This document shows positions 3,001 through 62,201 of a stretch of DNA of 64,000 nucleotides, one piece after another. Each line of letters starts with the position of its first letter. Within the stretch, counting starts at the first letter, position 1. Location of the stretch: contig NC_081404.1 of the NCBI RefSeq assembly GCF_030684315.1, forward strand, positions 13,769,140 to 13,833,139, read 5' to 3'. A program made the position numbers and the translations under genes. This DNA is from Stegostoma tigrinum. Taxonomy: Eukaryota. Below the pieces are notes generated by a model. It was not told the origin of the DNA and made no database searches. It was given only the letters and a program-made list of their open reading frames with translations.

Positions 3001-3468
3001 AGCTTTCAGTTCATGAGGCTCCAATTCTCGGAATTCCTTCTGTCAGCATTTCCTTCATTCTCCTTCCCAGTCGCCTCCTTCAAGGGCTAGATTTTCCGCA
3101 TGCTTTTTCTCATCGTCCTGATGGATTTTAGGGTGTCAAATTGTTTCTTGGAGAAAGCGGCTGCAAAACATCTTGGGCTGTCGTACTTTGCGAAAGATAC
3201 AACACAAATTGAGTTACTTTATCATTTTGCAATTATACTTTCAATTGTAGCACCAAGATTACAAGAAAATTTTTTTTTTCTCTCTCTCTCTCTCTCTGCC
3301 CCTTTGACAGGTGGTTTGCAGCAAGGCTTGGGTTGGGGAGCTGGATCATCTTCCTATGAGACCTCACTCAGTTCAAGTGGCTCTTACGCGAGCAACAGAG
3401 CGACGGTGGGTGGACGAACCACGTATGAGGTGTCGAGCACAGGACTCAGTCAACAAGGGATCATTTGA
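1..3468 (+). CDS. Type II keratin, array copy 1 (5'-truncated by the window edge). Exons <1-341, 465-673, 1042-1102, 1193-1288, 1423-1587, 1676-1801, 2131-2351, 2759-2808, 3311-3468
   Basis: Gly/Ser-rich head; helix-initiation-like [16 protein letters not shown]; helix-termination [20 protein letters not shown]. All introns are GT-AG. Internal exon sizes 209/61/96/165/126/221 nt and their phases match the canonical type II keratin gene layout. Stop TGA ends at 3468; AATAAA at 3654-3659. Confidence 0.95.
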
Positions 3469-4520
3469 AACCATCAGTGCCTCCCAGCCGTTCATTGTCA
3501 GAGGTTATACTTTCCCTCAGTACTGTTTTTAGAGCGGTGGTTGACATCTTTATATTCACTTCATGTCTGCTACTCGGAATGACTGCATTAACCTGTTCAC
3601 GTTTCATACTTAAATGACATGAAGTCTACAGCGACATCTTCATCAGTTGACAAAATAAAGTAAACTTTGTGAAAGTTTGGGTTTGTGGGAAATGCAGTCA
3701 GGACGTTCACACTGTATTTGTTGGTATCTTTAAAATGGGAATTAAAGCAAAGCTTTCGCTGTTGAACTCTGTTTCACTTTGATGTGTAATTTTGTTCGTT
3801 GATTTACCTTATGGCATTGCTGTCCGGCTGAATAAACGTGTAAACTGCACAACTCGATTGCTTTTTGAACAGCACAATGTTAAATGAATGAAAAGGACAA
3901 TGCTCATCCATTGTTGTGTAATTCAAGAAGTGCCCACTCCAATATCGTTACATTTCCACAAGTATGATGACACGTGGAAAGACGTCTTTGTAGTTAGCAT
4001 GTCGGCACAAATACCCCAACACTGAAAATAAGCTGTCAGCCGTGAATGAAACTATTCAGTCCAACATCAGTGAAACCACTGTTGTGAATCTGACCAGATT
4101 CCCTCAAAATATTTTACCAAGTTATCTAGACCTTCACTCGTTCTGATCAGAAATGTAAATATAATGTGTGTCCCAAATGAACTACGACTCATCAAACCAC
4201 ATGATGTTAAGCTCTACTTAAAATACAACCAAGGAAGGAAGCATTTGGAATAACAACTGTATTGGAAATCTTCATAGAAGAATAAATACAGTAATTATGA
4301 CTTACTTCCTGTGCCAATACAGAAGCATCCCATAAGCAACATCCATTGGGTAAAGGGAAAATTCAGGCACAGATTCTCACACACATTTCTCCAGTCTAGG
4401 AGGGAAATATCACCCGGAGAAAATACAAAGAAAGTAGCGACCCGGAGGCATTCACTCAAGCTCCCAACTCTGTTGAGACTCCAACAGCTTCTGATGCTGC
4501 ATGAAAAAGTCCCGAAATCT

Positions 4521-6696
4521 ATAGACAATAGACAATAGCTACTGGAATCGGCCATTCGGCCCTTCGAGCCAGCACCCCCATTCGTTATGATCATGGCTGA
4601 TCATCCACAGTCAGTATCCTGTTCCTGCCTTCTCCCCATAACCCTGGATTCCACTGTCTTTAAGAACTAATATCTATCTCTTTCTTCAAAGCATCCAGAG
4701 AGTTGGCCTCCACTGCCTTCTTGGGCAGAGCATTCCATATATCCACCACTCTCTGGCTAAAGAAGTTTCTCCTCAACTCTGTTCTAAATGGCCTAGCCCT
4801 TATTTTTAAACTGTGTCCTCTGGTTCTGGACTCACCCGTCAGCGGAAACATGCTTCCTGCCTCCAAAGTCTCCAATCCCTGAATAAACTTATACGCCTCA
4901 ATCAGATGCCCTCTCATCATTCTCAGCTCAAGTGTATACAAGCACAGTCGCTCCAATCTTTCAACATCCGATAGTCCCGCCATTCTGGGAATTGACCTCG
5001 TGAGCCTACACTGCACTCCCTCAATAGCAACAATGTCCTTCCTCAAATTTGGAGACCAAAACTGCACACAAAACTCCAGGTGCACTCTCACCAGGGCCCT
5101 GTACAGCTGCAGAAGGACCTCTTTGCTCCGATACTCAATTCCTCTTGTTATGAAGGCCAGCATGTAATTAGCTTTCTTCACTGCCTGCTGTACCTGCATG
5201 CTTGCTTTCATTGGCTAATTGACAAGAACACCTAGGTCTCGTTGTACTTCCCCTTTACGGAAATTGACTCCATGGAGGTCGTAATCTGCCTTCCTGTTCT
5301 TGCCACCAAAGTGTATAACTGCACATTTATCCACATTAAACTGCATCTGCCATGCATCCGTCCACTCAACCAGCTTGTCCAAATCACCCTGTATTCTCAA
5401 AACATCCTCCTCACATTTCACACTGCTACCCAACTTTGTGTCATCTGCAAATTTGCTAATATTACTTTAAATGCCTTCATCTATATCATTAATATATATC
5501 GTAAACAGCTGCGGTCCCAACACCGAATCTTGTGGTACCTCACTGGTCACTGCCTGTCATTCCGAAAGGGACCTGTTTATCACTACTCTTTGCTTCCTGT
5601 CAGCCAGCCAATTTTCAGTCCAACTCAGTATTTTGCCCCCAATACCATGTGCCCTAATTTTGTTCACCAATCTCCGATGTGGGACTTTATCAAAGGCTTT
5701 CTGAAAGTACATCCACTGTTTCTCCCTTAACCATCTTCAGAGATACATTCTCCAAAAAATGCAGAAGATTAGTCAAGCACGATTTCCCCTTCGTAAATCC
5801 ATGCTGACTCTGACCTATTCTGTTCCTGCTATCCAAATGAATTGTAATTTCATCTTTTATAATTGACTCCAGCATCTTTCCCACCACTGACGTCAGGCTA
5901 ACCGGTCTATCATTTCCTCTTTTCCCTCTCCCTCCTTTCTTGAAAAGTGCGACAACATTTGCCAGCCTCCAATTCACAGGAACTGATCCTGAATCTATCG
6001 ACCCTTGGAACATAATTACCAACGAGTCCACAATTTCTGGAGCCACCTCCTGAAGTACCGTGGGATGCACACCATCAGGTCCCGGGGACTTATCGGCCTT
6101 CAGACCGAACAGTCTATCCAACACCTTTTCCTGCCTAAGAGAAATACCCTTCAGTTCGTCCATTACCCTAGGTCCTTCAGCCACTATTGCATCTGGGAGA
6201 TTTCTTGTGTCTTCCCTAGTGAAGACAGATCTAAAGTACCTATTCAATTCTTCCTCCATTTCCTTGTTCCCCGTGTTCAATTCACCCGTTTCTGACTTCA
6301 AGGGCCCAATTTTAGTCTGAACCATTTTTTTTCTTTTCACATCGCTAAAAAAGCTTTTACTATCCTCCTTTATATTTTTGGCCAGTTTTCTTTCATAGCT
6401 CATTTTTTCACTGTTTATTGCCTTTTTACTTATCGGCTGTTGCTCTTTAAAAGCTTCCCAGTCCTCCCGCTTCCCACTCATCTTAGCTATGTTATACTTC
6501 TCTCTTATCTTTATGCAGTCCTTAACTTGACTCGTCAGCCATGAGCTGATCCTGCACCTTCTGCATTATATCCAGAAATACCTGCCACTGTTGTTCCACT
6601 GCCATCCGTGCGAGGGGATTGTACTATTGAACTTTGGCCAGCTCCTCCCATATAGCTGCATAGTTCCCTTCATTCAACTCAATGCTGACACATCCG
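4521..6696 (-). mobile_element. 5'-truncated, frameshifted CR1 LINE (ORF2 RT and C-terminal region), unit 1
   Basis: ORF fragments KSPGPDGVHP, RPVSLTSVVGKMLE, QHGFTKGKSCLTNLL, WQMQFNVDKC, RTRGHSLK and FFSQRVVDIWNALP; 3' tail repeat atagacaatagacaatag. Confidence 0.92.
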
Positions 6697-8976
6697 GAAC
6701 GGACCCCACCTCTTCAGGCTTTATTTTTTTCAAAATCCAAGACTTTATCACCTGTTTACTAAAAAGGGTCTTGATGAGCCAGCTCCAAACCTCTGCCTTA
6801 CAATGTCTCCGAGAGCACACAGGACAAAATAACCTCTTCAAATGACAGCACACCATTCAGTACACCACCGCCGAAACCGCTCAGTTCACACTCACGGAAA
6901 CTAATGAGTGCACCATCCTTGAAAGCACCCCGGCACCATCACTGAAACTGCGCAATACCCCAGTATTGATACATCCTGGCTGTCAATTAGCTGAGTCGGC
7001 TGGGCAGTTGTTTTGCGATGCAGATTGATGGCAGCAGCACGCGTCGAGCCCGTGCAGTGCCTGCGACCACCTTGCCGATCCTGCCTTCTCAAGCTTCCGT
7101 CTTGCCTGAGGCATGGTGACCCGCTGGTTAAGCTGACAACCAGTTTTCCCTCACTGTATTGCAGGCACTTTCCGCCCGAACTGTGTGAGCCGGCACTGCA
7201 CGCACACCTAGTTTGAAGGCAAGACAGCAGAGTAACATTTCTGTCTTTTGCAATGATGTGTTCAATGATTGCAATTCTCTGGTTTTGCGAGACTGTGTCG
7301 AGGCACAGAAGCAAACATGTTGGTGCTGATAACACACATCCATATCCCGACATGATGTTGCATGGTGTGCATTGAGGAAGTGCTGCACCATGAGCAGACA
7401 AACGGAAGTCGCTGCTGCATGCAATATTCACAGATCTGCTGCACAGACATTAGTTTTGCGTCACAAGGATTTTTAGGGCTCCCGTTCCGTCTTTCGTGAC
7501 ATGGTCAAGGTGCTTGCGCTAAGTCGTTGGTTTGCGCTCAGTGGACAGATGGCCACCGGGTCAAAGCAGGATGAGTTTGCAGCTGCATGACACCTTCACT
7601 TTCTGGCTGTGTGTATAATGCTGTTCCCTTTTGAACAGTCTCACGTTGCCGCGATACGCAGCACCCTCCCTGACATGACCCAGCACCAACGGCAGCTGCT
7701 TTGGGCCTGGCCTCAGACATTTCCATTCCCATTGAGCACTTGTGCTTTTCAGCAAAATGGAAGCTACAAATGGCAGCTCTTTCAGACGTGCGTTCTGTGA
7801 GTCTAACTGAGTCTGCACCTGCCCACTTATCCCCCGAGCTGCAAGGATATCTGGTCAATAGGTCAGCATTTCCGGGGAACCGACACTTTCCCATTCACAT
7901 CCAGCCTTCCGCGGATTATCGTCTCCCCACTGATATATTCAGCTGTCCCCCAGGGCCTTTTCACTTTTCTCATCACCATTATGTTCGTAGCCCTTCTCCC
8001 GCAGCACTGGCAACCGAATACCCGCCACCTAACCTTGACTTTCTGTGGATGGACACCTCACATTGACCGTGGTGCACCACTTCAGCTGCTTCGCTGTGCA
8101 GCCCTGATCAATGAGTGACCAGAACCCTGACTGATACTTCTGCAGCTCTGCTACTCTGTTCCTGTGTCTCGCTGGACTGATTGCAATGGATCCACGCGGC
8201 TGACCATAGCCAACTCTCCAGGCTGCACTGCTATGGGCCACCGAACCGTCAGCACTCTAAGCGCCTCACACCTTGCCCAAGCCCCTGGACTGATATCATA
8301 GACAGCCCAGAACTTTACAAATTCCAAAGGGGTTATTAATGTCGCCAGATTGCACACATTCCAATTATACCGTTTTGATACTGCAACGCATTCTTTGCCT
8401 TGCATCACAGCGGCATCCACTAGCTCCCTCAGGCTTCATTCTGCCTTATTTATTTACTTTTATTGTAAATAATCAACACTGCTGTTCCCGATAAGCTCAT
8501 TATAACACTGCAGTGAAGTTTTCTGATATTCACGAAGCCTTACAATCCCTGAAACATCTGTTCAATTTAAACAGTGGTGAACAAAATACTCAACGGCCCC
8601 ATTTGACTGGAATGTCACCATTTATTTAACCGTGTGTTTGGGGGTTTGGTGGTTGTACAATGTGGGTGGGTGTAATGGTGCACAGCGCTCAATTCCCATG
8701 GGCTCTCTGCCCGCTCTCACGCAATCTTCCATTGCTAATTTTCATGAGACTGCCCAAGTCAGAAAAGCAGCTCGTCGCTCTCACCAAACTCCGTCATTCA
8801 CCAAACTCCAAGGTCCAGATCGTGTTGCAAGTTGCACTCAGTGACCAGCTGCCTTCCAATCTCATTGATTTCCAGAAACTGCGACTAAGATCATTCGTGG
8901 GTGGGAGCCTGAGACTTGCTTGCTGGCCTGGCCATGTCCAAGATTCAGACGCGACCAGAAAAGCTGCAAACTGATC

Positions 8977-9500
8977 ATAGAACATAAAACATAGAACATT
9001 ACAGCACAGTACAGGCCCTTCGGACCTCGATGTTGTGCAGACCTGTCATACCGATCTTCAGCCCATCTAACCGACACTATTCCATGTACGTCCATATGCT
9101 TGTCCAATGACGACTTAAATGTACCTAAAGTTGGCGAATCTACTGCCGTTGCAGGCAAAGCGTTCCTTTCCCTAACTACTCTCTGAGTAAACAATCTACC
9201 TCTGACATCTGTCCCATATCTTTCACCCCTCAATTTCAAGCTCTGACCCCTCGTGCTCGCCGTCACCATCCTAGGAAAAAGGCTCTCCCTATCCACCCTA
9301 TCTAACTCTCTGATTAGTTTATATGTTTGAATTAAGTCACCTCTCAACCGTCTTCTCTCTGATGAAAACAGCCTCAAGTCCCTCAGCCTTACCTCGTAAG
9401 ACCTTCCCTCCATACCAGGCAACATCCTAGTAAATCTCCTCTGCACCCTTTCCAGAGCTTCCACCTCCTTCTTACAATGCGGTGACCAGAACTGTTCACA
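8977..9500 (-). mobile_element. CR1 LINE 3' fragment of a second subfamily, unit 1
   Basis: [28 protein letters not shown]...RRRLRGDLI...FTQRVV; tail repeat catagaacataaaacatagaac. Confidence 0.9.
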
Positions 9501-10379
9501 AACTGCACTGTAAAGTTCGTTGTGTATATTCAGACGCTGTGACACGACTGTGCAGCAAGTAGGACTGCAACTCAGGCCTCCTTACTCAGAGCTAGGGACA
9601 TTCCCACCACATCACCAAAGCGCTGAACTTTCCATTTGATGCTGCTTGTGGAAGAGAAGGCGCTGGAGATCCTGTGAATTCACCCGTTTCACCAGTTGGT
9701 GGAGCCTCTGGAACACAGTCCTCGGGAACTGCGCGACTGTGCAAAGGGGATCGTTCCAAGCGCCTCTCACACACTTCTTGCTCGCTGCATCCTGTCACCC
9801 GCACCCCCCAACAAGCACCAAACCAACTCAGCGCTCGAACGCTGTCAGCAAGGCACTTAACAACTTCGAATCATACGTTCAACATCAGAAACACGATCCA
9901 AGAGGCAGATTTTTATGTTCAAAATGTATTCGAAGAAAGGCACGCACTATTTGGGCGGAGACAGTGGCGAATGTGCAAAGAGGGCAGAGGTGGAGGAATG
10001 CCCAGACTGTCTGAGGGTTGGAGGGAGCCCAAACAGGGAGAAAGAAAAGTGGGTTCGGGACCAGAAGGAGTGTCCGAACATGGAGGGGTGCGCGGGTCGA
10101 CCGGGATTTGCGAAATCCCGGCTATGAAGTGAATGGGGAAAGCTGGATGTGGGTAATGGGTTGGCAAAGGGGTGACCATTCAGGAGAAGATGCGGTTGAA
10201 GCAGGGACTGCCCAGTTGAGAAAAGGCCTGAAACAGCTGACGATGTAAAATGGGGTGGTGGTTAGGAGGAGTGGGCGGTGTTGGAGAACCTTGGACTGAT
10301 TGCAAGTGGCGAGCTAAGCAAAGAATCAGGTGTTGGCGCTCGGCAAAGGTGCAGGTCCCACCTCTCCTCCCCGGCCCAG

Positions 10380-10603
10380 GGGCACAGGGCGGCGGCTGGT
10401 TCCTCCCCTCTCCGGCTTGCTCCATTCTGGGCGGTTCCTTGTCAACAGACAGCCCCTTGGCCAACCCAGACTCACACGGACATAAAAGCAGCCGAGTCCG
10501 TCCTCAGCTCCACCGAGCCGTTCACGTTCTGACTGTGCTCTCTCTCTCTCACTCTCTCTCTCTGTCTCTGCGAGTCTGTGTCTACGTCGTGAAAAACCTC
10601 GAA
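10380..10603 (+). promoter_or_regulatory. Proximal promoter and 5' UTR of copy 2: GC boxes, CATAAAA TATA variant (10481-10487), (CT)n tract. Equivalent CATAAAA at 21208-21214 and 31923-31929
   Basis: CATAAAA lies ~120 nt upstream of the ATG and is preceded by GGGCGG boxes; same position in all three complete copies. Confidence 0.6.
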
Positions 10604-13600
10604 ATGACATCGAAAATCATCAGCAGCACCACCAGCAGCACCTCCCGCAGCAGCAGGAGCCGAGGGGGAGGCCCAATTGGCGGAGCAGCCGGGTTTTCCA
10701 CTGGACTGATCCTTTCGGGAAGCGGAGGGGGTGTTCGGGGACCCAGGAGCTCCCAAAGTGTCATCCTGAGACCGACACAGTCCGTTTCAAGCGCCCGAAT
10801 CTCCCGAGGCTCGGTGTTGGGCTCCAGCAGATATGGTGGCGGCGGTGGATCGAGCTTCAGCCGAATAAGTGTCGGTGCGGCTGGTTTAGGCTCAATGGGC
10901 TACCGGGGATATGGGGGAGGTATGTCTCAAGGTCTGATCCAGAGAACCGCTGCCCTGGACCTGAGCACCCCTTTGCCTCAAATCGATACCACCCAGCGGG
11001 CTATCCGAGTGGAGGAGAGCAAGCAGCTTCAGGGACTCAATAACCAGTTCGCGGACTTCGTTGGCAAGGTAATGTTCAGTGCTGCCCAGGCGGGTGGGTT
11101 TGTCAAATGCGTCCTCCGTGTCGTTTTCTCTCGTGCCTTGTGGTGTCCGTCGCAACGTCTAACTATCTGTCTCTCCATCTCACCCCGCCAGGTTCGGTAT
11201 TTGGAAAGGATCAATACTGAGCTGAATATCAAACTGAAACTTCTGCAGGATCAAGGCGAATACAAATCCAACATCGAGAGCATGTTCCAGGTCTACATTG
11301 ACAATCTGAAGAAACAACTGGAGGCACTTGGCCAGGAGAAGCTGAGGTTCGAGGCAGACCTGGTCCAAATGCAAGCTCTGGTCGAGGACTATAAGGGCAA
11401 GTAAGTGAGCTGCAGCTGAGTTGAGTCACGGGTTGCTTCGGAGGCGGGTTCGTGTCCGAACCAAACAGAAATACCAGGGACAGAATGAGTTCGCTTTGCC
11501 AAACCGGTAGAATGACAGCTGACGGAATTGTCCGCAGCATTGCCATGTAGACCGAACCGAACTGCACAGGGCTGTGCCGCTTCTCGTCTACGCGCTCGTT
11601 TGATTGAAGTGGGAGCACGGCTGATGCTTCCGACAACATCGTCTGACAGTGTGTGTCTTGTGTCGGGACGGAAAGGTAACGACGAGCGGAGACAGAGACA
11701 AAACAGGGACGGTGATAGGGATCAGGCTGAAAGACTGAGCATCGGTAAAACAATCTCTTTCGTTCCAGGTACGAAGATGAAATCAACAAGCGGACGGAAA
11801 TGGAAAATGAGTTTGTCCTGGTCAAGAAGGTGACTTTTATAACGATGCGCGGTACAGATCTCCGTTTGCGGCGACTTTTGCTCACTTTCATCAATGCATT
11901 CCCTCCCTCTGCTCTTTAGGATGTTGATGACTCGTACATGAGCAAAGTGGAGCTGGAAGCTAAACTGGAAGGTCTGACAGATGAAATCGATTTCCTGCGG
12001 TCTATCTATGAAGAGGTAAACACGTGGCAATGGTCGGGCTGTTATCGTTTTCTGATCTGCTTTCCATTCGAGTCTCATGCAATGTAGCCCGAATGGTTTT
12101 CAATCACCTTGCAATCTTCATCCGCCTCCCCGCCCCCGCCCACATGTAGGAAATCCGGGAGCTGCAAGCCCAGATACAGAACACATGTGTCAATGTGCAA
12201 TTGGAGGGCGGTCCGAAATTCGATGTCGAGGAGCTCCTCGCCAATGCCAGGAGGCAGTACGAAGCCTGCGCCCAGCAGAGCCGTGAGGAAGCGGAAACTT
12301 GGAAACAAACCAAGGTGAAGATTACGTGTCGCTGTCGCGTTCTTATCCAGCGGGCTGCAAAGTGAACTGTGGGACTAACGTGTTCCCAATGTCTGTTTGC
12401 AGATGCAGGAACTGGCCATGGCGTCTGGACAATGTGGCGATGATCTCAATATGCTGAAGTCAGAGATTAAACAGTCGACAGATCAAATCCGGAAACTGAA
12501 AGCATCCATCGATGCCCTGAAAAAGGAGGTAGGCAAAGGTGTGAAAGCGAACAGGGGGTGGGAAACGGTTGTAAATATCTGTACGTCTCTTTTACTCTCT
12601 CTGTCTTACCTCTCTGTCCGACATTATTATCGGGAAGGCAATAAGGGGATAGGATCAGCTCAGCTGGGTTCTTTTCTGAACGCGTGGGGGGTCTGACTGC
12701 TGTCCTTTCCGATTGGAATCAGTGGCTGGCCAGTCACGCCGCCCTCCCCAAATCATTGCGCGGGGCGGGAGCGTTTTGCCTCGGTGTCGTTCTGAACACT
12801 GAGCTGACCCCAGTAAATACTGAAGAAACTGGCCGAATGAATATTTATGTTCCTCAGCGTCTGAAACTGGAAGATGCAATCCGAGAAGCAGAGGAACGCG
12901 GCGAGAATTCTCTGAAAGACTCTCGGATGAGGATTAGCGAACTGGAAGAGGCCATCTTGAGAGCCGGGCAAGAGCTTTCCAAACAAGCCAGGGAGTACGA
13001 ACAGCTGGTGGGCATCAAGCTTGCACTGGACATTGAAATTGGGACCTACAAGAAAATGCTGGAGGGAGAGGAGGCAAGGTAAGATCAGGGCCAGTCGCTA
13101 ATCGCAGCCATCACATTGAGTCCCGTGCTGGCAAATTGCAGTCCGTCCTTGCAGTTGACTGGTAGCTCTGGTCTCTGAGAATGGAATGGACTGCAGGCAC
13201 TGGGAGTGACAATCTCTTCATTATCGACATGTCCCGGGTAAAGGTCAGCTGTCCCGTTCCTCACGCTCCCATGGCCTGCTGGCCCCTGCTGCCTGTGACA
13301 GCAGCACCTAAAGACTGGGCACTTTGCCTGAGGCGAAGGAAGCTGACAGTGCCCTTTCAGAAGTGCATCCCAGCAGATGTCAGAGTCTCTGGGTGAGGGA
13401 GGAACTTGGGAAAACGGAGTGAAAGGGTGACTGTGATTTCCTGCAATTTCCTGCTCCGATCTGAGTGTGTTTCATTTCTCAACAGGATGGCAAGTGGGGT
13501 TAAAACCCTCAACATCCAGCAAGTCCAGAGCCAAGGTAAGAGAATTTGAGGTCCAAGTGAAGTGTGATGATTCTTTCTGGTCAGGTTCTGCTCAGCTTCA

Positions 13601-14192
13601 TTCCAATCAGCCATCATCATTTCCCACCTTCAACATCAGATGCTTGTATCATTTGGCCTTGTAAAATGATCGGTAATCACCAGCCCTTGCCAGCCTACTT
13701 CACATCCCTGATTGACATCACCCAACCAGCTTTCAGTTCATGAGGCTCCAATTCTCGGAATTCCTTCTGTCAGCATTTCCTTCATTCTCCTTCCCAGTCG
13801 CCTCCTTCAAGGGCTAGATTTTCCGCATGCTTTTTCTCATCGTCCTGATGGATTTTAGGGTGTCAAATTGTTTCTTGGAGAAAGCGGCTGCAAAACATCT
13901 TGGGCTGTCGTACTTTGCGAAAGATACAACACAAATTGAGTTACTTTATCATTTTGCAATTATACTTTCAATTGTAGCACCAAGATTACAAGAAAATTTT
14001 TTTTTCTCTCTCTCTCGCTCTGCCCCTTTGACAGGTGGTTTGCAACAAGGCTTGGGTTGGGGAGCTGGATCATCTTCCTATGAGACCTCACTCAGTTCAA
14101 GTGGCTCTTACGCGAGCAACAGAGCGACGGTGGGTGGACGAACCACGTATGAGGTGTCGAGCACAGGACTCAGTCAACAAGGGATCATTTGA
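10604..14192 (+). CDS. Type II keratin, array copy 2, complete, ~516 aa. Exons 10604-11068, 11192-11400, 11769-11829, 11920-12015, 12150-12314, 12403-12528, 12858-13078, 13486-13535, 14035-14192
   Basis: ATG in gaaATGa ([12 protein letters not shown]...). Spliced CDS is 1551 nt and open throughout. Same splice sites as copy 1 at offset 10727; AATAAA at 14378-14383. Confidence 0.95.
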
Positions 14193-20227: not shown

Positions 20228-21322
20228 AACTGCACTGTAAAGTTCGTTGTGTATATTCAGACGCTGTGACACGACTGTGCAGCAAGTAGGACTGCAACTC
20301 AGGCCTCCTTACTCAGAGCTAGGGACATTCCCACCACATCACCAAAGCGCTGAACTTTCCATTTGATGCTGCTTGTGGAAGAGAAGGCGCTGGAGATCCT
20401 GTGAATTCACCCGTTTCACCAGTTGGTGGAGCCTCTGGAACACAGTCCTCGGGAACTGCGCGACTGTGCAAAGGGGATCGTTCCAAGCGCCTCTCACACA
20501 CTTCTTGCTCGCTGCATCCTGTCACCCGCACCCCCCAACAAGCACCAAACCAACTCAGCGCTCGAACGCTGTCAGCAAGGCACTTAACAACTTCGAATCA
20601 TACGTTCAACATCAGAAACACGATCCAAGAGGCAGATTTTTATGTTCAAAATGTATTCGAAGAAAGGCACGCACTATTTGGGAGGAGACAATGGCGAATG
20701 TGCAAAGAGGGCAGAGGTGGAGGAATGCCCAGAATGTCTGAGGGTTGAAGGGAGCCCAAACAGGGAGAAAGAAAAGTGGGTTCGGGACCAGAAGGAGTGT
20801 CCGAACATGGAGGGGTGCGCGGGTCGACCGGGATTTGCGAAATCCCGGCTATGAAGTGAATGGGGAAAGCTGGATGTGGGTAATGGGTTGGCAAAGGGGT
20901 GACCATTCAGGAGAAGATGCGGTTGAAGCAGGGACTGCCCAGTTGAGAAAAGGCCTGAAACAGCTGACGATGTAAAATGGGGTGGTGGTTAGGAGGAGTG
21001 GGCGGTGTTGGAGAACCTTGGACTGATTGCAAGTGGCGAGCTAAGCAAAGAATCAGGTGTTGGCGCTCGGCAAAGGTGCAGGTCCCACCTCTCCTCCCCG
21101 GCCCAGGGGCACAGGGCGGCGGCTGGTTCCTCCCCTCTCCGGCTTGCTCCATTCTGGGCGGTTCCTTGTCAACAGACAGCCCCTTGGCCAACCCAGACTC
21201 ACACGGACATAAAAGCAGCCGAGTCCGTCCTCAGCTCCACCGAGCCGTTCACTTTCTGTCTGTGCTCTCTCTCTCTCTCTCTCTCTCTGCGAGTCTGTGT
21301 CTACGTCGTGAAAAACCTCGAA

Positions 21323-24300
21323 ATGACATCGAAAATCATCAGCAGCACCACCAGCAGCACCTCCCGCAGCAGCAGGAGCCGAGGGGGAGGCCCAATTGGC
21401 GGAGCAGCCGGGTTTTCCACTGGACTGATCCTGTCGGGAAGCGGAGGGGGTGTTCGGGGACCCAGGAGCTCCCAAAGTGTCATCCTGAGACCGACACAGT
21501 CCGTCTCAAGCGCCCGAATCTCCCGAGGCTCGGCGTTGGGCTCCAGCAAATATGGTGGCGGCGGTGGATCGAGCTTCAGCCGAATAAGTGTCGGTGCGGC
21601 TGGTTTAGGCTCAATGGGCTACCGGGGATATGGGGGAGGTATGTCTCAAGGTCTGATCCAGAGAACCGCTGCCCTGGACCTGAGCACCCCTTTGCCTCAA
21701 ATCGATACCACCCAGCGGGCTATCCGAGTGGAGGAGAGCAAGCAGCTTCAGGGACTCAATAACCAGTTCGCGGACTTCGTTGGCAAGGTAATGTTCAGTG
21801 CTGCCCAGGCGGGTGGGTTTGTCAAATGCGTCCTCCGTGTCGTTTTCTCTCGTGCCTTGTGGTGTCCGTCGCAACGTCTAACTATCTGTCTCTCCATCTC
21901 ACCCCGCCAGGTTCGGTATTTGGAAAGGATCAATACTGAGCTGAATATCAAACTGAAACTTCTGCAGGATCAAGGCGAATACAAATCCAACATCGAGAGC
22001 ATGTTCCAGGTCTACATTGACAATCTGAAGAAACAACTGGAGGCACTTGGCCAGGAGAAGCTGAGGTTCGAGGCAGACCTGGTCCAAATGCAAGCTCTGG
22101 TCGAGGACTATAAGGGCAAGTAAGTGAGCTGCAGCTGAGTTTAGTCACGGGTTGCTTCGGAGGCGGGTTCGTGTCCGAACCAAACAGAAATACCAGGGAC
22201 AGAATGAGTTCGCTTTGCCAAACCGGTAGAATGACAGCTGACGGAATTGTCCGCAGCATTGCCATGTAGACCGAACCGAACTGCACAGGGCTGTGCCGCT
22301 TCTCGTCTGCGCGCTCGTTTGATTGAAGTGGGAGCACGACTGATGCTTCCGACAACATCGTCTGACAGTGTGTGTCTTGTGTCGGGACGGAAAGGTAACG
22401 ACGAGCGGAGACAGAGACAAAACAGGGACGGTGATAGGGATCAGGCTGAAAGACTGAGCATCGGTAAAACAATCTCTTTCGTTCCAGGTACGAAGATGAA
22501 ATCAACAAGCGGACGGAAATGGAAAATGAGTTTGTCCTGGTCAAGAAGGTGACTTTTATAACGATGCGCGGTACAGATCTCCGTTTGCGGCGACTTTTGC
22601 TCACTTTCATCAATGCATTCCCTCCCTCTGCTCTTTAGGATGTTGATGACTCGTACATGAGCAAAGTGGAGCTGGAAGCTAAACTGGAAGGTCTGACAGA
22701 TGAAATCGATTTCCTGCGGTCTATCTATGAAGAGGTAAACACGTGGCAATGGTCGGGCTGTTATCGTTTTCTGATCTGCTTTCCATTCGAGTCTCATGCA
22801 ATGTAGCCCGAATGGTTTTCAATCACCTTGCAATCTTCATCCGCCTCCCCGCCCCCGCCCACATGTAGGAAATCCGGGAGCTGCAAGCCCAGATACAGAA
22901 CACATGTGTCAATGTGCAATTGGAGGGCGGTCCGAAATTCGATGTCGAGGAGCTCCTCGCCAATGCCAGGAGGCAGTACGAAGCCTGCGCCCAGCAGAGC
23001 CGTGAGGAAGCGGAAACTTGGAAACAAACCAAGGTGAAGATTACGTGTCGCTGTCGCGTTCTTATCCAGCGGGCTGCAAAGTGAACTGTGGGACTAACGT
23101 GTTCCCAATGTCTGTTTGCAGATGCAGGAACTGGCCATGGCGTCTGGACAATGTGGCGATGATCTCAATATGCTGAAGTCAGAGATTAAACAGTCGACAG
23201 ATCAAATCCGGAAACTGAAAGCATCCATCGATGCCCTGAAAAAGGAGGTAGGCAAAGGTGTGAAAGCGAACAGGGTATGGGAAACGGTTGTAAATATCTG
23301 TACGTCTCTTTTACTCTCTCTGTCTTACCTCTCTGTCCGACATTATTATCGGGAAGGCAATAAGGGGATAGGATCAGCTCAGCTGGGTTCTTTTCTGAAC
23401 GCGTGGGGGGTCTGACTGCTGTCCTTTCCGATTGGAATCAGTGGCTGGCCAGTCACGCCGCCCTCCGCAAATCATTGCGCGGGGCGGGAGCGTTTTGCCT
23501 CGGTGTCGTTCTGAACACTGAGCTGACCCCAGTAAATACTGAAGAAACTGGCCGAATGAATATTTATGTTCCTCAGCGTCTGAAACTGGAAGATGCAATC
23601 CGAGAAGCAGAGGAACGCGGCGAGAATTCTCTGAAAGACTCTCGGATGAGGATTAGCGAACTGGAAGAGGCCATCTTGAGAGCCGGGCAAGAGCTTTCCA
23701 AACAAGCCAGGGAGTACGAACAGCTGGTGGGCATCAAGCTTGCACTGGACATTGAAATTGGGACCTACAAGAAAATGCTGGAGGGAGAGGAGGCAAGGTA
23801 AGATCAGGGCCAGTCGCTAATCGCAGCCATCACATTGAGTCCCGTGCTGGCAAATTGCAGTCCGTCCTTGCAGTTGACTGGTAGCTCTGGTCTCTGAGAA
23901 TGGAATGGACTGCAGGCACTGGGAGTGACAATCACTTCATTATCTACATGTCCCGGGTAAAGGTCAGCTGTCCCGTTCCTCACGCTCCCATGGCCTGCTG
24001 GCCCCTGCTGCCTGTGACAGCAGCACCTAAAGATTGGGCACTTTGCCTGAGGCGAAGGAAGCTGACAGTGCCCTTTCAGAAGTGCATCCCAGCAGATGTC
24101 AGAGTCTCTGGGTGAGGGAGGAACTTGGGAAAACGGAGTGAAAGGGTGACTGTGATTTCCTGCAATTTCCTGCTCCGATCTGAGTGTGTTTCATTTCTCA
24201 ACAGGATGGCAAGTGGGGTTAAAACCCTCAACATCCAGCAAGTCCAGAGCCAAGGTAAGAGAATTTGAGGTCCAAGTGAAGTGTGATGATTCTTTCTGGT

Positions 24301-30942: not shown

Positions 30943-32035
30943 AACTGCACTGTAAAGTTCGTTGTGTATATTCAGACGCTGTGACACGACTGTGCAGCAA
31001 GTAGGACTGCAACTCAGGCCTCCTTACTCAGAGCTAGGGACATTCCCACCACATCACCAAAGCGCTGAACTTTCCATTTGATGCTGCTTGTGGAAGAGAA
31101 GGCGCTGGAGATCCTGTGAATTCACCCGTTTCACCAGTTGGTGGAGCCTCTGGAAAACAGTCCTCGGGAACTGCGCGACTGTGCAAAGGGGATCGTTCCA
31201 AGCGCCTCTCACACACTTCTTGCTCCCTGCATCCTGTCACCCGCACCCCCCAACAAGCACCAAACCAACTCAGCGCTCGAACGCTGTCAGCAAGGCACTT
31301 AACAACTTCGAATCATACGTTCAACATCAGAAACACGATCCAAGAGGCAGATTTTTATGTTCAAAATGTATTCGAAGAAAGGCACGCACTATTTGGGCGG
31401 AGACAGTGGCGAATGTGCAAAGAGGGCAGAGGTGGAGGAATGTCCAGAATGTCTGAGGGTTGGAGGGAGCCCAAACAGGGAGAAAGAAAAGTGGGTTCGG
31501 GACCAGAAGGAGTGTCCGAACATGGAGGGGTGCGCGGGTCGACCGGGATTTGCGAAATCCCGGCTATGAAGTGAATGGGGAAAGCTGGATGTGGGTAATG
31601 GGTTGGCAAAGGGGTGACCATTCAGGAGAAGATGCGGTTGAAGCAGGGACTGCCCAGTTGAGAAAAGGCCTGAAACAGCTGACGATGTAAAATGGGGTGG
31701 TGGTTAGGAGGAGTGGGCGGTGTTGGAGAACCTTGGACTGATTGCAAGTGGCGAGCTAAGCAAAGAATCAGGTGTTGGCGCTCGGCAAAGGTGCAGGTCC
31801 CACCTCTCCTCCCCGGCCCAGGGGCACAGGGCGGCGGCTGGTTCCTCCCCTCTCCGGCTTGCTCCATTCTGGGCGGTTCCTTGTCAACAGACAGCCCCTT
31901 GGCCAACCCAGACTCACACGGACATAAAAGCAGCCGAGTCCGTCCTCAGCTCCACCGAGCCGTTCACGTTCTGACTGTGCTCTCTCTCTCTCTCTCTCTC
32001 TGCGAGTCTGTGTCTACGTCGTGAAAAACCTCGAA

Positions 32036-35000
32036 ATGACATCGAAAATCATCAGCAGCACCACCAGCAGCACCTCCCGCAGCAGCAGGAGCCGAGGGGG
32101 AGGCCCAATTGGCGGAGCAGCCGGGTTTTCCACTGGACTGATCCTGTCGGGAAGCGGAGGGGGTGTTCGGGGACCCAGGAGCTCCCAAAGTGTCATCCTG
32201 AGACCGACACAGTCCGTTTCAAGCGCCCGAATCTCCCGAGGCTCGGTGTTGGGCTCCAGCAGATATGGTGGCGGCGGTGGATCGAGCTTCAGCCGAATAA
32301 GTGTCGGTGCGGCTGGTTTAGGCTCAATGGGCTACCGGGGATATGGGGGAGGTATGTCTCAAGGGCTGATCCAGAGAACCGCTGCCCTGGACCTGAGCAC
32401 CCCTTTGCCTCAAATCGATACCACCCAGCGGGCTATCCGAGTGGAGGAGAGCAAGCAGCTTCAGGGACTCAATAACCAGTTCGCGGACTTCGTTGGCAAG
32501 GTAATGTTCAGTGCTGCCCAGGCGGGTGGGTTTGTCAAATGCGTCCTCCGTGTCGTTTTCTCTCGTGCCTTGTGGTGTCCGTCGCAAAGTCTAACTGTCT
32601 GTCTCTCCATCTCACCCCGCCAGGTTCGGTATTTGGAAAGGATCAATACTGAGCTGAATATCAAACTGAAACTTCTGCAGGATCAAGGCGAATACAAATC
32701 CAACATCGAGAGCATGTTCCAGGTCTACATTGACAATCTGAAGAAACAACTGGAGGCACTTGGCCAGGAGAAGCTGAGGTTCGAGGCAGACCTGGTCCAA
32801 ATGCAAGCTCTGGTCGAGGACTATAAGTGCAAGTAAGTGAGCTGCAGCTGAGTTTAGTCACGGGTTGCTTCGGAGGCGGGTTCGTGTCCGAACCAAACAG
32901 AAATACCAGGGACAGAATGAGTTCGCTTTGCCAAACCGGTAGAATGACAGCTGACGGAATTGTCCGCAGCATTGCCATGTAGACCGAACCGAACTGCACA
33001 GGGCTGTGCCGCTTCTCGTCTGCGCGCTCGTTTGATTGAAGTGGGAGCACGGCTGATGCTTCCGACAACATCGTCTGACAGTGTGTGTCTTGTGTCGGAA
33101 CCGAAAGGTAACGACTAGCGGAGACAGAGACAAAACAGGGACGGTGATAGGGATCAGGCTGAAAGACTGAGCATCGGTAAAACAATCTCTTTCGTTCCAG
33201 GTACGAAGATGAAATCAACAAGCGGACGGAAATGGAAAATGAGTTTGTCCTGGTCAAGAAGGTGACTTTTATAACGATGCGCGGTACAGATCTCCGTTTG
33301 CGGCGACTTTTGCTCACTTTCATCAATGCATTCCCTCCCTCTGCTCTTTAGGATGTTGATGACTCGTACATGAGCAAAGTGGAGCTGGAAGCTAAACTGG
33401 AAGGTCTGACAGATGAAATCGATTTCCTGCGGTCTATCTATGAAGAGGTAAACACGTGGCAATGGTCGGGCTGTTATCGTTTTCTGATCTGCTTTCCATT
33501 CGAGTCTCATGCAATGTAGCCCGAATGGTTTTTAATCACCTTGCAATCTTCATCCGCCTCCCCGCCCCCGCCCACATGTAGGAAATCCGGGAGCTGCAAG
33601 CCCAGATACAGAACACATGTGTCAATGTGCAATTGGAGGGCGGTCCGAAATTCGATGTCGAGGAGCTCCTCGCCAATGCCAGGAGGCAGTACGAAGCCTG
33701 CGCCCAGCAGAGCCGTGAGGAAGCGGAAACTTGGAAACAAACCAAGGTGAAGATTACGTGTCGCTGTCGCGTTCTTATCCAGCGGGCTGCAAAGTGAACT
33801 GTGGGACTAACGTGTTCCCAATGTCTGTTTGCAGATGCAGGAACTGGCCATGGCGTCTGGACAATGTGGCGATGATCTCAATATGCTGAAGTCAGAGATT
33901 AAACAGTCGACAGATCAAATCCGGAAACTGAAAGCATCCATCGATGCCCTGAAAAAGGAGGTAGGCAAAGGTGTGAAAGCGAACAGGGTATGGGAAACGG
34001 TTGTAAATATCTGTACGTCTCTTTTACTCTCTCTGTCTTACCTCTCTGTCCGACATTATTATCGGGAAGGCAATAAGGGGATAGGATCAGCTCGGCTGGG
34101 TTCTTTTCTGACAACGTGGGGGGTCTGACTGCTGTCCTTTCCGAATGGAATCTGTGGCTGGCCAGTCACGCCGCCCTCCGCAAATCATTGCGCGGGGCGG
34201 GAGCGTTTTGCCTCGGTGTCGTTCTGAACACTGAGCTGACCCCAGTAAATACTGAAGAAACTGGCCGAATGAATATTTATGTTCCTCAGCGTCTGAAACT
34301 GGAAGATGCAATCCGAGAAGCAGAGGAACGCGGCGAGAATTCTCTGAAAGACTCTCGGATGAGGATTAGCGAACTGGAAGAGGCCATCTTGAGAGCCGGG
34401 CAAGAGCTTTCCAAACAAGCCAGGGAGTACGAACAGCTGGTGGGCATCAAGCTTGCACTGGACATTGAAATTGGGACCTACAAGAAAATGCTGGAGGGAG
34501 AGGAGGCAAGGTAAGATCAGGGCCAGTCGCTAATCGCAGCCATCACATTGAGTCCCGTGCTGGCAAATTGCAGTCCGTCCTTGCAGTTGACTGGTAGCTC
34601 TGGTCTCTGAGAATGGAATGGACTGCAGGCACTGGGAGTGACAATCACTTCATTATCTACATGTCCCGGGTAAAGGTCAGCTGTCCCGTTCCTCACGCTC
34701 CCATGGCCTGCTGGCCCCTGCTGCCTGTGACAGCAGCACCTAAAGACTGGGCACTTTGCCTGAGGCGAAGGAAGCTGACAGTGCCCTTTCAGAAGTGCAT
34801 CCCAGCAGATGTCAGAGTCTCTGGGTGAGGGAGGAACTTGGGAAAACGGAGTGAAAGGGTGACTGTGATTTCCTGCAATTTCCTGCTCCGATCTGAGTGT
34901 GTTTCATTTCTCAACAGGATGGCAAGTGGGGTTAAAACCCTCAACATCCAGCAAGTACAGAGCCAAGGTAAGAGAATTTCTGTTTCCTCCTTTTGACAAA

Positions 35001-35536
35001 TAATTTCTGAACGAATTGCTTGACACCTTAAAGAAAAATGGGAAATTCTGGAACACCTATTGGAAACTGATCATGAACGAATAGCAAATTGATGATTTGT
35101 TCTTTTAGCTTTCCACTGTTGTCACTTTTTATCTGTTTGCTGAAGAGCATCAATGGTGCTCCCAATATAGTATCGTTCCTTTGCCCATTCCCAGGCTGAT
35201 AGAATTGTTGTGTGTTTCCAATATTTTCATAATGTCCTCTGATACTGCTTCATTTTGATCAATTGCATGGATGAGTGGACATTTTGAAAGCTATTCACTG
35301 AAGATGATCATTTTTGACATTAGAGTAAGAGCTCATATATTGAAGTGTGTTTCCTTTTGTTTTCAGCTGATTTTTCATCATTTAATTCAATGTCATCTGG
35401 ATTGACTCCATTTTTGAACGCCAGTGCATATGAAACCTCTGTCATGTCTTCATCCACAAGAAGTCCTCTGTTGGTGAAGAAAACAGAGTTGGTGGATGGA
35501 GTTACAATTTCTTCATCTATAAATCCCTTGAACTAG
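32036..35536 (+). CDS. Type II keratin, array copy 4, with a different terminal exon, ~520 aa. Exons 32036-32500, 32624-32832, 33201-33261, 33352-33447, 33582-33746, 33835-33960, 34290-34510, 34918-34967, 35367-35536
   Basis: Exons 1-8 are near-identical to the other copies (G>C in YKCK). A pyrimidine-rich acceptor ttccttttgttttcag ends at 35366, and the phase-1 join gives [62 protein letters not shown] at 36134-36139. Confidence 0.9.
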
Positions 35537-36133
35537 CTGGGAGGAAAACATTCTGTCCAGTGTTTGTCTCATGTCTCCATACAATTCAATTTTCATCTTT
35601 CATCTTCTTCTTTGAGTACGGTTCTGAAAATTCCTAGTTTTGCATGTTTTGGGAACTCTTTAAAAATACTAACACTGGTGAGATCCCAAATCCACAGTCC
35701 TTTTCAGCCTTCCGAGCTTTGTACGTGATGAATTTGCGCCACAAACAGTATTGATTAGTCTGCCCTAAACTTCCAGCACAAGCTGTACAATCATTAATTA
35801 TAACTGTGCCATGTGATATCAGTTGCAGTATATCAGATTATTTTTGGTTACTTTACTGATTGCCTGATATTATAAGTTTCGCATCATGAAAAATCTTGTG
35901 TATGCACACATTTTGGCTTAACTGGTGGGAATGGCTCAGTAATTCTTTTTTGTCACTGTCTTGAGTCTCGAAAGGTAGATATCCAACTTCTGAAAGGCTA
36001 ATTATTGAGGTTAATGGGAAACAATTATTGGGTCATTTAAGAAAGAAATCAATGTTTTCTTTGTAGAACTGTTTCAAATTCTGCATCTTCTTGTACCAGA
36101 TAATTATCTTTCATCACAGCCAGTGAAATACCG

Positions 36134-36139
36134 AATAAA
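36134..36139 (+). terminator. Polyadenylation signal of keratin copy 4
   Basis: AATAAA ~600 nt after the alternative exon 9 stop, followed by T/GT-rich sequence. Confidence 0.5.
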
Positions 36140-36209
36140 TGTGCTTTCTGCAATTCAAAATTGTTGATTCCTTGTGTTCCACGCATTGGTGTCCCTATCT
36201 ATTTCATCG

Positions 36210-36557
36210 AACATAGAATCCCTACAGGGTGGAAACAGGCCATTCAACTCATCCAGTCCATATCAACCCTCAGAAGAGCATCCCACCCCGACCCACCCCT
36301 CCCCTGTTCCTGTAATCCTGCATTTCCCATGGCTAATCCACCTAGCCTTGCACGTCCTTGGACACAATGGGACAATTTAGCATGGCCAATCCATTTAACT
36401 TGCCTATCTTTGAACTGTGGGAGGAAACTGCAGCATTGGAAAATCACCCACGCAGACATGAGGAAAATGTGCAAACTCCATACAGAAAGTTGCCTGGGGT
36501 AGAATCAAACCTGAGACTCTGGCTTAGCGAGGCAGCATTGCTAACCACTGAGCCACC
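36210..36557 (-). mobile_element. tRNA-derived SINE of the shark HE1/V-SINE type
   Basis: On the reverse strand it starts ggtggctcagtggttagc (A box) with a B-box-like ggtttgattc. Central region ...acccacgcagacatgaggaaaatgtgcaaactcc... and a CR1-like 3' tail catagaatcc. Family assigned from recalled consensus. Confidence 0.75.
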
Positions 36558-38299
36558 ATACTTATTTCTCCCATCATGATTTTTTTTACATTATGGTTTC
36601 AATGTTACATTTTCGTGCTTTGGAAATCCTGAGCCACACTCAATCTGCATTCATTCACAAAAACATGCCTGAACAGAAAAGATATATTCACCAAGCAAAT
36701 TCACACAGTAGGCACCATGGATTTAGAGAATTGGTGAAAATCTGAATACAATGCTCAGCAAAAACACTCTTATTCATGTTTCTGTATAACCAGTTTAGAT
36801 TAGCAGCCACCTTCACTGAGTGCCTTAAAAAATGATTTCTCATGGACTTAAAATTAAGTTATGCACAGGCCTTTTTTGTTTTAACATTTTCAAGCATGCT
36901 CTTCAGGGGCCTGTCCCACTGTTAGAAAATGGAGACTAAAGTTGGTGAGGCTTTCTCCATGTCCCTTGAGTGTATATATCAACGCCATACTGCAGATGTC
37001 CAAATGCACCAGTGTCATTGTAAGTTTGTGACCACCAGAAAAAACTACCTCATTTTCTCTCTATCAGATAAATCAAAGAATGCAAGGTATAACAAGGAAG
37101 CCCTGGCTTGCCCGATAATGATAACCACCATGTTTTAAAATTTTTGGCACTCATTGAGTTTCAAAAGTCCCAGTCATTTCTGTCTTGCTATGCATTAATG
37201 AATGTATAATTGAGTGCTTTTCTAGTTGTCTAATATTTCGTCTTGCAACATTGCATTCAATCAATTATGTCAAAGCAAGATAAAGGCAATTCAAAACTCA
37301 AATGATATGGAACATAGAAATCAAATTAAGGAATGAAGCTCTAAAATGATTACAAAAATAAATAAATCAGACATTGAATTCTCAAACTTAATTTCAAGCA
37401 AGTTACACACATAGGATATGTTAATCTACTCAATTGTTACACCACAGTCAGATCGCATCTGTCAATAGTAATCCCTGTGGTTTCTTTTTATCAACATAAT
37501 AAAAAAAATTCTTCTCTTGGTTGAAATGTTCAAGTGCGTTTCAGTTTGTTTTACTAAATTATTTCAAACTAACTGGAAGATGAACTTTAATTATTGAGAT
37601 TCCTCCCTCTTATCTGCTGCCTTTATCAATCATATTCATCATCACACTTAATTCCAGCCACAGGCATAAACAACAGCTATCCAATAGCAAGGGCCATTGT
37701 TTTATTGACTCATATGAAAATTGGCACCTTTGCTGCACAGTGCAGCGTTCCCTCAGAGTATGTGCTTAAGGCTCTGAATCTGCAAACCTCTAACTCAAAG
37801 GTGACAATGGATCGATCGAGCTTCCTGTTATGTATAATATCCCTTGCAGAGGCTTTTCCATTTGTTACTATGTTAGTAGGTCTCAATATAGCACATGCTC
37901 GCAAGACAGCTTTTCTCTTAGCACCCGAAAGTTCTGTATGCTGTCACATCCATTTCTGCCATTTAAGTGTCAATACTGGTAGAAAATCAGTTAGTAAAAT
38001 CAGATTTGTTTGTGGTTCAGTGAGCTCCACACATCTGGCAATACATATCTGCTTAGCAATAAAGAAGATGGAGAAACATATGTTCATTTTGAAATCTGAG
38101 AATAACCAGTTTATTGATGAAAGCCAATGAGGACAGTTAAGTTTTAATTATTCCCAATCATGGCTGCTTTTTCCTATGTAACTGGAAAAGATAATCAGCC
38201 CTGTTTAACTGCAAAGATTAAAAACAATTCAAGTTCCCATCTTATAGTTATCAATTCACCCAGAAATGCCACTTCTCCCCCTATGATACAACATTTAAC

Positions 38300-62107: not shown

Positions 62108-62201
62108 TTTGGCGTTTGTTTTCGCAGACAGACAGTCAGCTGGAACCCTTCTGAATCAATGTTTTCCAAAATCTGGTTGGGATCAACAAGTCTGCATGTC
62201 C

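What the first reader, a model, noticed from the sequence alone, without database searches (positions are those of the whole stretch)
34918..35536. Keratin tail swap at the array boundary: one head and rod, two different last exons
Seen: copy 4 matches copies 1-3 up to 12 nt into intron 8 (gtaagagaattt, 34979). It then runs into unrelated AT-rich sequence and an in-phase exon encoding ADFSSFNS...[31 protein letters not shown]. Copies 1-3 instead end in [10 protein letters not shown]...[11 protein letters not shown]...QQGII. The two tails share a YETS-S core, so they look paralogous. Established: VKK.E..DG...S resembles the conserved K8-type tail motif (VVKKIETRDGKLVS), and only copy 4 has it. 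Inference: unequal crossover near exon 8 between an upstream gene A and a downstream gene B made a unit of [A intron 8 + exon 9, spacer, B promoter + exons 1-8], which was then amplified. Copies 1-3 would be new chimeric keratins and copy 4 the parental B gene.
Basis: partly seen in the sequence, partly recalled or inferred. Interest (0 to 1): 0.85.

Follow-up and report, generated by a model that had tools for sequence, protein, structure and literature searches.

The report
Shark keratin array keeps two tails
This shark has nine near-identical keratin genes in a row, eight ending in one tail and the last in another; the same two tail types sit on near-identical protein bodies in most sharks and rays examined, so the bodies have likely been copied over one another for hundreds of millions of years while the two tails stayed separate.

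Summary
The junction at 34979 and the second last exon (35367-35536) are real, but this is not a recent tail swap. The array has nine intact type II keratin genes. Eight end in tail A (GGLQQG...) and the last ends in tail B (ADFSS...). The first gene is not a divergent parent. All nine share a 3.2-kb block from about 290 nt before the ATG to 12 nt into intron 8. Copy B differs from the A copies by 0.67% there, against 0.62% among the A copies, and its variants are a patchwork. In 16 of 20 named cartilaginous fish species both tail types occur on bodies 94.7-100% identical within the species, while bodies differ 5-53% between species. Bodies group by species, tails mostly by type. Spliced contigs hold both tails. 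Best reading: an old gene pair under partial concerted evolution, with conversion stopping at intron 8, at least since the shark-ray split. Unequal crossover would change only the number of A copies. The kind is known (IFIT1/IFIT1B, KRT81/83/86); nine paper searches did not find this case. A functional difference between the tails is untested.

The parts
1..2820 (+). Copy 6 of 9: shared block (exons 1-8 and 12 nt of intron 8); its ATG lies 123 nt before the window. Copies 1-5 lie upstream, ATGs at window positions -74274, -63566, -47422, -31272, -15133
2821..3310 (+). Intron 8A, A-specific part
3311..3468 (+). Exon 9A coding part of copy 6 (tail A, GGLQQG...QQGII); AATAAA at 3654
3469..10303 (+). 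3'UTR A and intergenic spacer with repeat fragments; part of the amplified unit
10304..13547 (+). Copy 7 shared block (proximal promoter, ATG 10604, exons 1-8)
14035..14192 (+). Exon 9A of copy 7
21031..24266 (+). Copy 8 shared block (ATG 21323); its protein is identical to P0007
24754..24911 (+). Exon 9A of copy 8
31746..34979 (+). Copy 9 shared block: proximal promoter, ATG 32036, exons 1-8 (32036-32500, 32624-32832, 33201-33261, 33352-33447, 33582-33746, 33835-33960, 34290-34510, 34918-34967) and 12 nt of intron 8; a mosaic of variants seen in A copies
34980..35366 (+). Intron 8B, unique, 35% GC; present at about 89% identity in a DNA run of another organism
35367..35536 (+). Exon 9B coding part (tail B, ADFSS...[22 protein letters not shown])
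35537..36140 (+). 3'UTR of the B gene; AATAAA at 36134; contigs of spliced runs reach 36100-36108

Best explanation
Nine intact keratin genes share one head and rod, eight with tail A and the last with tail B, and this is likely an ancient two-gene pair whose promoter-to-exon-8 block is repeatedly homogenised by gene conversion and unequal crossover while the two last exons evolve apart. Shown: the architecture [unique 5' flank]-(S-A-spacer)x8-S-B, with S the 3.2-kb shared block; nine open frames with GT-AG introns; copy 9 no more different from A copies than they are from each other; both tail types on within-species identical bodies in 16 of 20 species. Inferred, step by step: (1) a type II keratin gene duplicated in tandem before the shark-ray split; (2) intron 8, exon 9 and the 3'UTR diverged until they could no longer recombine; (3) S stayed identical, so mispairing keeps renewing it, introns included; (4) a crossover between two S blocks adds or removes an A-tail unit but cannot change the number of B tails, because B lies outside the repeat; (5) GC-biased conversion likely raised the GC of S; (6) selection likely keeps both tails. 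Because copy 9 has the same spacer and proximal promoter as copies 2-8, A and B would be co-expressed and differ mainly in tail, 3'UTR and dose.
For: Array map and non-divergent first copy. Nine intact ORFs; 7 synonymous and 4 replacement variable codons in exons 1-8. In S, mean A-B difference 0.67% and A-A 0.62% over 3221 columns, against 1.36% A-A in the A-specific part over 7458 columns; 132 of 528 informative site pairs incompatible, at least 7 exchanges; copy 9 shares 7 sites of one pattern with copies 2-4 and 3 sites with copies 5-8. Within-species A versus B bodies 94.7-100% identical and tails 20-45%, in 16 of 20 species; between-species bodies 47-95%. The A/B label needs 18 changes on the body tree (shuffled mean 12.5) and 3 on the tail tree (shuffled mean 11; 0 of 500 as low). 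The tail tree rejects pairing A with B within this species (p-AU 0.0185) and within basking shark (1.9e-5). For 30 of 32 tails the best tail from another order outscores the own-species partner. Introns 1-7 are 52% GC against 35% in intron 8B and 41-43% in introns 2-6 of both neighbour keratins; fourfold sites 0.70 against 0.53 and 0.42. A contig of run X10 joins exon 7 to exon 9A with 50 letters between; in run X5 the shared contig stops at 34956 and two contigs over exon 9A and exon 9B each carry 39 unlaid 5' letters, which fits a branch at the 34957 variant of copy 9. DNA run X14 of another organism holds intron 8B, exon 9B and its 3'UTR at about 90%.
Against: Only proteins, no DNA or gene order, were available for the other species, so the last position of B and the intron identity are shown for this genome only. 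Cluster members are grouped at 90% identity, which favours near-identical bodies; only 120 of 1989 hits were listed from 8000 scored candidates. I assigned A and B by eye from the tails, so class agreement is partly circular. Four of 20 species showed one tail only. Carpet-shark A tails (GGLQQG type) have no clear match to A tails of other orders (z 2.4-3.9), so tail A may have been replaced in that order. Chimaera A and B tails group with each other (87/80, long branches), the tail tree has only 57 columns, and B monophyly is merely not rejected (p-AU 0.307). The X14 contig has only 24 laid letters left of 34979, under the tool's 31-letter rule for bridging. High GC and CpG could also reflect low methylation. 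Clustered variants also arise from serial duplication, as in the spacer.
Confidence: 0.85

Rival explanations
1. Recent tail swap: one unequal crossover between divergent genes A and B made new chimeric keratins, which then amplified.
For: The unit geometry fits, the junction is sharp, and copies are 98-99.8% identical.
Against: There is no divergent gene A at the 5' end. Both tail-rod combinations exist in epaulette and bamboo sharks and, as two tail types, in 16 of 20 species.
Confidence: 0.02
2. Old pair, but tail A has been replaced or re-created more than once (for example in carpet sharks and in chimaeras), so only tail B and the homogenising process are shared by all lineages.
For: Carpet-shark A tails match no other-order A tail (z 2.4-3.9); skate A tails match best to B tails (z 3.9-6.1); chimaera A and B tails group together.
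Against: A tails of horn shark, sawshark, sevengill, mackerel sharks and several rays match each other across orders (z 8-25) and 10 of them form one weak group (54/91). Fast drift of a low-complexity tail would look the same.
Confidence: 0.08
3. In other species the two tails are alternative last exons of one gene, and the separate genes here are a local rearrangement.
For: In some species A and B bodies are 100% identical at aligned columns, and some accessions are consecutive. No gene order was seen outside this genome.
Against: Most species show a few body differences between A and B and several distinct A sequences. The source names carry no isoform label. In this genome the two tails are on separate full genes.
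Confidence: 0.03
4. Purifying selection alone keeps the bodies alike, or the array is an assembly artefact.
For: Keratin rods are conserved (general knowledge). Copy number was not checked by read depth, and copies 6 and 7 have 0 substitutions in the shared block.
Against: Introns and synonymous sites are as identical as the protein, and bodies differ by 13% from whale shark and about 30% from bamboo sharks. Copies differ by 0.2-2.2% in the spacer and carry copy-specific insertions of 5.4 and 4.2 kb. Spliced contigs hold both tails.
Confidence: 0.02

Closest known systems
IFIT1 / IFIT1B in mammals (PMC4887208, passages read)
   Same: Old tandem paralogues with the 5' part homogenised by recurrent gene conversion in many lineages, a recurrent breakpoint, and 3' ends that keep paralogue identity.
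   Different: Here the boundary is 12 nt into intron 8 of a nine-exon gene, promoter and seven introns are included, near-identity holds in all 16 species with both tails, one partner is amplified up to eightfold, and the pair is older (shark-ray split at least; date recalled). Function of the two ends was tested for IFIT, not here.
Mammalian K6A/B/C and K81/K83/K86/K87 (PMC5540548, passages read)
   Same: Type II keratin paralogues that group by species, read as concerted evolution.
   Different: In that paper only 3 of 19 such groups gave significant conversion signals, and the passages read do not describe a fixed boundary with two conserved last exons. Different lineage.
KRTAP1 repeats (10.1101/282418, abstract read)
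   Same: Tandem skin-protein genes with an abrupt switch between concerted and normally diverging sequence.
   Different: There the whole coding region is concerted and the switch is at start and stop codons; here the switch lies inside the gene and leaves two protein tails.
Catshark 'epidermal keratin type II' CAA76715 (P0020) and the proteins named 'keratin, type II cytoskeletal 8-like'
   Same: P0020 falls inside this clade next to the other catshark pair (100/100) and carries a short B-like tail.
   Different: The name is the source's label; the paper behind it (Schaffeld et al. 1998, seen only as a reference in PMC2174949) was not read. The array genes are not the locus's best K8 candidate.

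Membership tests
Type II keratin gene | Intermediate-filament rod with closest relatives among type II keratins | tested here: met
   PF00038 on P0001; the named hits among the best 120 are nearly all labelled type II keratins or IF proteins
Type II keratin gene | Nine exons with lengths 209, 61, 96, 165, 126, 221 for exons 2-7 (type II pattern, recalled) | tested here: met
   Same lengths in all nine copies and in both neighbour genes
Keratin 8 orthologue | K8 tail motif K.[IV]ET.DG | tested here: not met
   Absent in tail A; tail B of this species reads KKTELVDG (z 4.2); the upstream gene has KTIETKDG (z 10.9). The epaulette shark B tail has the full motif.
Keratin 8 orthologue | Head-to-head with a K18-type gene | tested here: not met
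   The type I gene at about -132 to -135 kb faces the upstream gene, not the array; its K18 identity is by resemblance only
Keratin 8 orthologue | Groups with bony-vertebrate K8 in a rod tree | tested here: inconclusive
   K8 rows were used as outgroup; upstream gene, downstream gene and the array clade are unresolved
Partial concerted evolution (IFIT1/IFIT1B type) | One part groups by species, the other by paralogue | tested here: met
   18 versus 3 label changes on body and tail trees; identities
Partial concerted evolution (IFIT1/IFIT1B type) | Homogenisation covers neutral sites | tested here: met
   Introns and synonymous sites about 99.3% identical between A and B; this genome only
Partial concerted evolution (IFIT1/IFIT1B type) | Same breakpoint in independent lineages | tested here: met
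   At protein level identity ends at the exon 8/9 border in the 15 elasmobranchs with both tails and about 7 residues later in the chimaera
Partial concerted evolution (IFIT1/IFIT1B type) | Conserved gene order across species | not testable with these tools
   No genomic context for relatives
Partial concerted evolution (IFIT1/IFIT1B type) | Distinct function of the two diverged ends | not testable with these tools
   Needs expression and filament assays

The most novel reading that the evidence does not exclude
Since the common ancestor of all cartilaginous fishes (about 400 million years, date recalled), this keratin has been made from a self-renewing array that keeps one head and rod but two selected tails. 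Unequal crossover tunes the A:B tail ratio (8:1 here, apparently 1:1 in some rays), so the array is a dosage dial for filament tail composition and one of the longest-running cases of boundary-limited gene conversion in vertebrates.
Probability: 0.35. Interest if true: 0.72.

Novelty: new variant of a known kind. Interest (0 to 1): 0.56.

Why it matters
It turns an apparent one-off chimera into a lineage-wide pattern. It gives a natural experiment on keratin tails: two proteins with the same head, rod and proximal promoter that differ only in the last exon, kept across sharks and rays. It offers a clean long-term test case for gene conversion boundaries and GC-biased conversion. It also warns that rod-based keratin trees would read these pairs as many independent recent duplications, and that short-read expression counts cannot separate these genes except by their last exons.

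Tried and rejected
Looked for a divergent parental gene A or a remnant upstream of copy 1: none; the spacer matched that region only in short interspersed-repeat-like pieces, and 2 kb upstream of the left boundary was no more like the spacer than shuffles (53 of 300). A search with tail B alone against longer proteins found only P0001 among 68 candidates: uninformative, as B tails then appeared through cluster members. Intron 8 and 3'UTR of A and B are not alignable (176 and 109 of 300 shuffles). The run search listed no holder on record as RNA: no RNA holder listed. X10 gave no cover over exon 9B: not used as evidence. Contig depths were not used as copy numbers or expression levels. A third clade test (manta A+B) stopped with an error because of identical rows. 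An ad hoc B motif matched only 14 of 21 B rows and 0 of 48 A rows. Earlier findings near this place: none. Paper searches listed no paper on this pattern in shark or ray keratins; the library lacks most subscription papers. Structure prediction was not run, as the tails are low-complexity and it would not change the reading.

Full report
Observation. The window starts inside a tandem array with a period of about 10.7 kb whose alignments all end at 34979. The 12 nt after exon 8 are shared by all copies; then copy 9 runs into a 35% GC intron unrelated to intron 8A and an in-phase exon at 35367-35536. The spliced product is a 520-aa ORF identical to stored protein P0001.

Whole array. The window is G000:C64:13769140-13833139. 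I took 200 kb on each side. There are nine genes: eight with tail A and the last with tail B. All nine have open frames and GT-AG introns. Homology starts abruptly about 290 nt before the first ATG. The layout is unique flank, (S + A + spacer) eight times, S, B, with S the 3.2-kb block from proximal promoter to intron 8 +12. Neighbours are a type I keratin (minus strand, about -132 to -135 kb) head-to-head with a type II gene (-131.8 to -114.6 kb), and another type II gene on the minus strand at about 49.5-62.1 kb. The upstream gene has the best K8-type tail (median z 10.9, against 4.2 for tail B and 0.6 for tail A, over the 75 of 93 bony-vertebrate hits that carry the motif).

Inside the array. 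Over 3221 ungapped columns of S, copy 9 differs from the A copies by 0.67% on average and the A copies differ from each other by 0.62%. The A-specific part differs by 1.36% over 7458 columns. Of 33 informative sites in S, 132 of 528 pairs are incompatible and at least 7 exchanges are needed. Copy 9 shares one pattern with copies 2-4 at 7 sites, another with copies 5-8 at 3 sites, and single sites with copy 4 (34957) and copy 5 (32828). The spacer is also mosaic (2530 of 7503 pairs incompatible), so exchange is array-wide. Introns 1-7 are short (1539 nt) and 52% GC. Intron 8B is 35% GC, and introns 2-6 of the neighbours are 41-43% GC and 7.6-13 kb long. This fits GC-biased conversion but does not prove it.

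Relatives. Protein searches and cluster look-ups gave this keratin in 20 named cartilaginous fish species; the protein identical to copy 8 is labelled Stegostoma tigrinum. I left out five short or aberrant chimaera models, one N-extended model of this species, one whale shark model without tail (P0004) and three unnamed proteins, and classed tails by eye. Sixteen of 20 species have both tail types on bodies 94.7-100% identical, with tails 20-45% identical; bodies of different species are 47-95% identical. Each of the 15 elasmobranchs with both types shows exactly one distinct B sequence and one to six distinct A sequences (sequences, not gene counts). The chimaera has four B entries from different sources, probably one gene (not tested). 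Whale shark and smooth-hound showed A only; nursehound and little skate showed B only. On the body tree (36 array rows plus 6 others) the A/B label needs 18 changes. On the tail tree (32 rows, one A and one B for each of the 16 species, 57 columns) it needs 3, and 0 of 500 shuffles were as low. Pairing A with B tails within species is rejected for this species (p-AU 0.0185) and basking shark (1.9e-5). For 30 of 32 tails the best tail from another order beats the own-species partner, and all 16 B tails hit a B tail first.

Results against. Carpet-shark A tails have no clear match outside their order (z 2.4-3.9), skate A tails hit B tails first, and the chimaera's two tails group together. So tail B and the process reach safely to the shark-ray split, but the single origin of tail A and the inclusion of chimaeras are open. 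The 90% clusters favour near-identical bodies, and only 120 of 1989 hits were listed. No DNA or gene order was available for the named relatives.

Reads. I laid 4 of 20 listed runs on 24270-37500; all are contigs, and none is on record as RNA. A 431-nt contig of X10 covers exon 7 and exon 9A with 50 letters between, the length of exon 8. In X5 a spliced contig covers exons 1-8 up to 34956; two other contigs cover exon 9A with its UTR (3 other letters) and exon 9B with its UTR to 36100 (0 other letters), each with 39 unlaid 5' letters. With words of 31 letters this is what a branch at 34957 gives, the site where copy 9 differs from seven of eight A copies. I infer splicing 34967>35367 from this; the joint row itself was among those not displayed. 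X6 has pieces on both 3' ends. DNA run X14, from another organism at about 90% identity, has contigs over 34956-35384, 35383-35787 and 35786-36281, so intron 8B and exon 9B follow exon 8 there too. Only 24 of its laid letters lie left of 34979, short of the tool's bridging rule.

Mechanism. Shown: architecture, intact genes, neutral-site identity and mosaicism in this genome, and the species-versus-type split in proteins. Inferred: an old tandem duplication; divergence of intron 8 onward beyond the reach of recombination; continual renewal of S by conversion and unequal crossover; change in A number only, since B lies outside the repeat; selection on both tails. Copy 9 has the same spacer and proximal promoter as copies 2-8, so co-expression is predicted, with tail, 3'UTR (about 190-210 nt against 600 nt) and dose as the differences. 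That keratin tails affect bundling and regulation is recalled knowledge, not tested here.

Known systems. IFIT1/IFIT1B is the closest logic: 5' homogenised, 3' divergent, recurrent breakpoint (PMC4887208, 12 of 25 passages). Species-wise grouping of K6A/B/C and K81/83/86/87 is reported as concerted evolution (PMC5540548, 2 passages). KRTAP1 shows an abrupt concerted/non-concerted switch (10.1101/282418, abstract). The survey of fish keratin clusters used elephant shark as its only cartilaginous fish and has 0 occurrences of 'conversion' or 'concerted' in the main text (10.1101/2020.05.06.063123, 12 of 24 passages; supplements not seen and could bear on this). A keratin family review has 0 occurrences of 'shark', 'conversion' or 'concerted' (PMC8733776). 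Passages of PMC2174949, PMC13558645 and PMC10620051 added nothing on this locus. Nine searches listed no description of this pattern. Schaffeld et al. 1998 and Vandebergh and Bossuyt 2012 were not read. Divergence dates are recalled.

Verdict. Real feature, wrong age. It is a new variant of a known kind: boundary-limited concerted evolution of a keratin pair across sharks and rays, with one partner amplified. Confidence 0.85, interest 0.56.

Noticed in passing
window about 49460-62110, minus strand: A further type II keratin gene facing the array tail to tail; exons 2-7 open, exon 8 near 50301, last exon near 49609 ending ...[17 protein letters not shown], large introns at 41% GC.
   Followed up: partly
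upstream loci, window positions about -131820 to -114590 (+) and -132400 to -134800 (-): Head-to-head pair of a type II gene with a K8-type tail and a K18-like type I gene; the best candidate for the krt8/krt18 pair of this cluster.
   Followed up: partly
spacers after copies 2-4 and copy 5 (window about -59137 to -53722, -42988 to -37573, -26844 to -21429; -6507 to -2279): A 5.4-kb insertion shared by copies 2-4 and a 4.2-kb insertion in copy 5, with matches to repeat fragments; they mark copies 2-4 and 6-8 as two recent sub-expansions. Not classified.
   Followed up: partly
window 34968-34979 and about -115635: The donor gtaagagaa is the same in intron 8A, intron 8B and intron 8 of the upstream K8-like gene, so part of the 12-nt overhang may be a conserved splice signal rather than conversion tract.
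   Followed up: no
window 31065-31745, run X14: In the other organism one contig runs from 31065 through the promoter to exon 6, past the point where homology of copy 1 begins in this genome; the left boundary of the shared block may differ between species.
   Followed up: no
window 32828: Copies 5 and 9 share a Gly224Cys change in the rod.
   Followed up: no
window 44750-45709: An inverted pair of about 280 nt at 84% identity, probably two copies of an interspersed repeat.
   Followed up: no
proteins P0001-P0175: The body of this keratin differs strongly between orders (about 50-65% identity); whether this is faster than other shark keratins was not tested.
   Followed up: no
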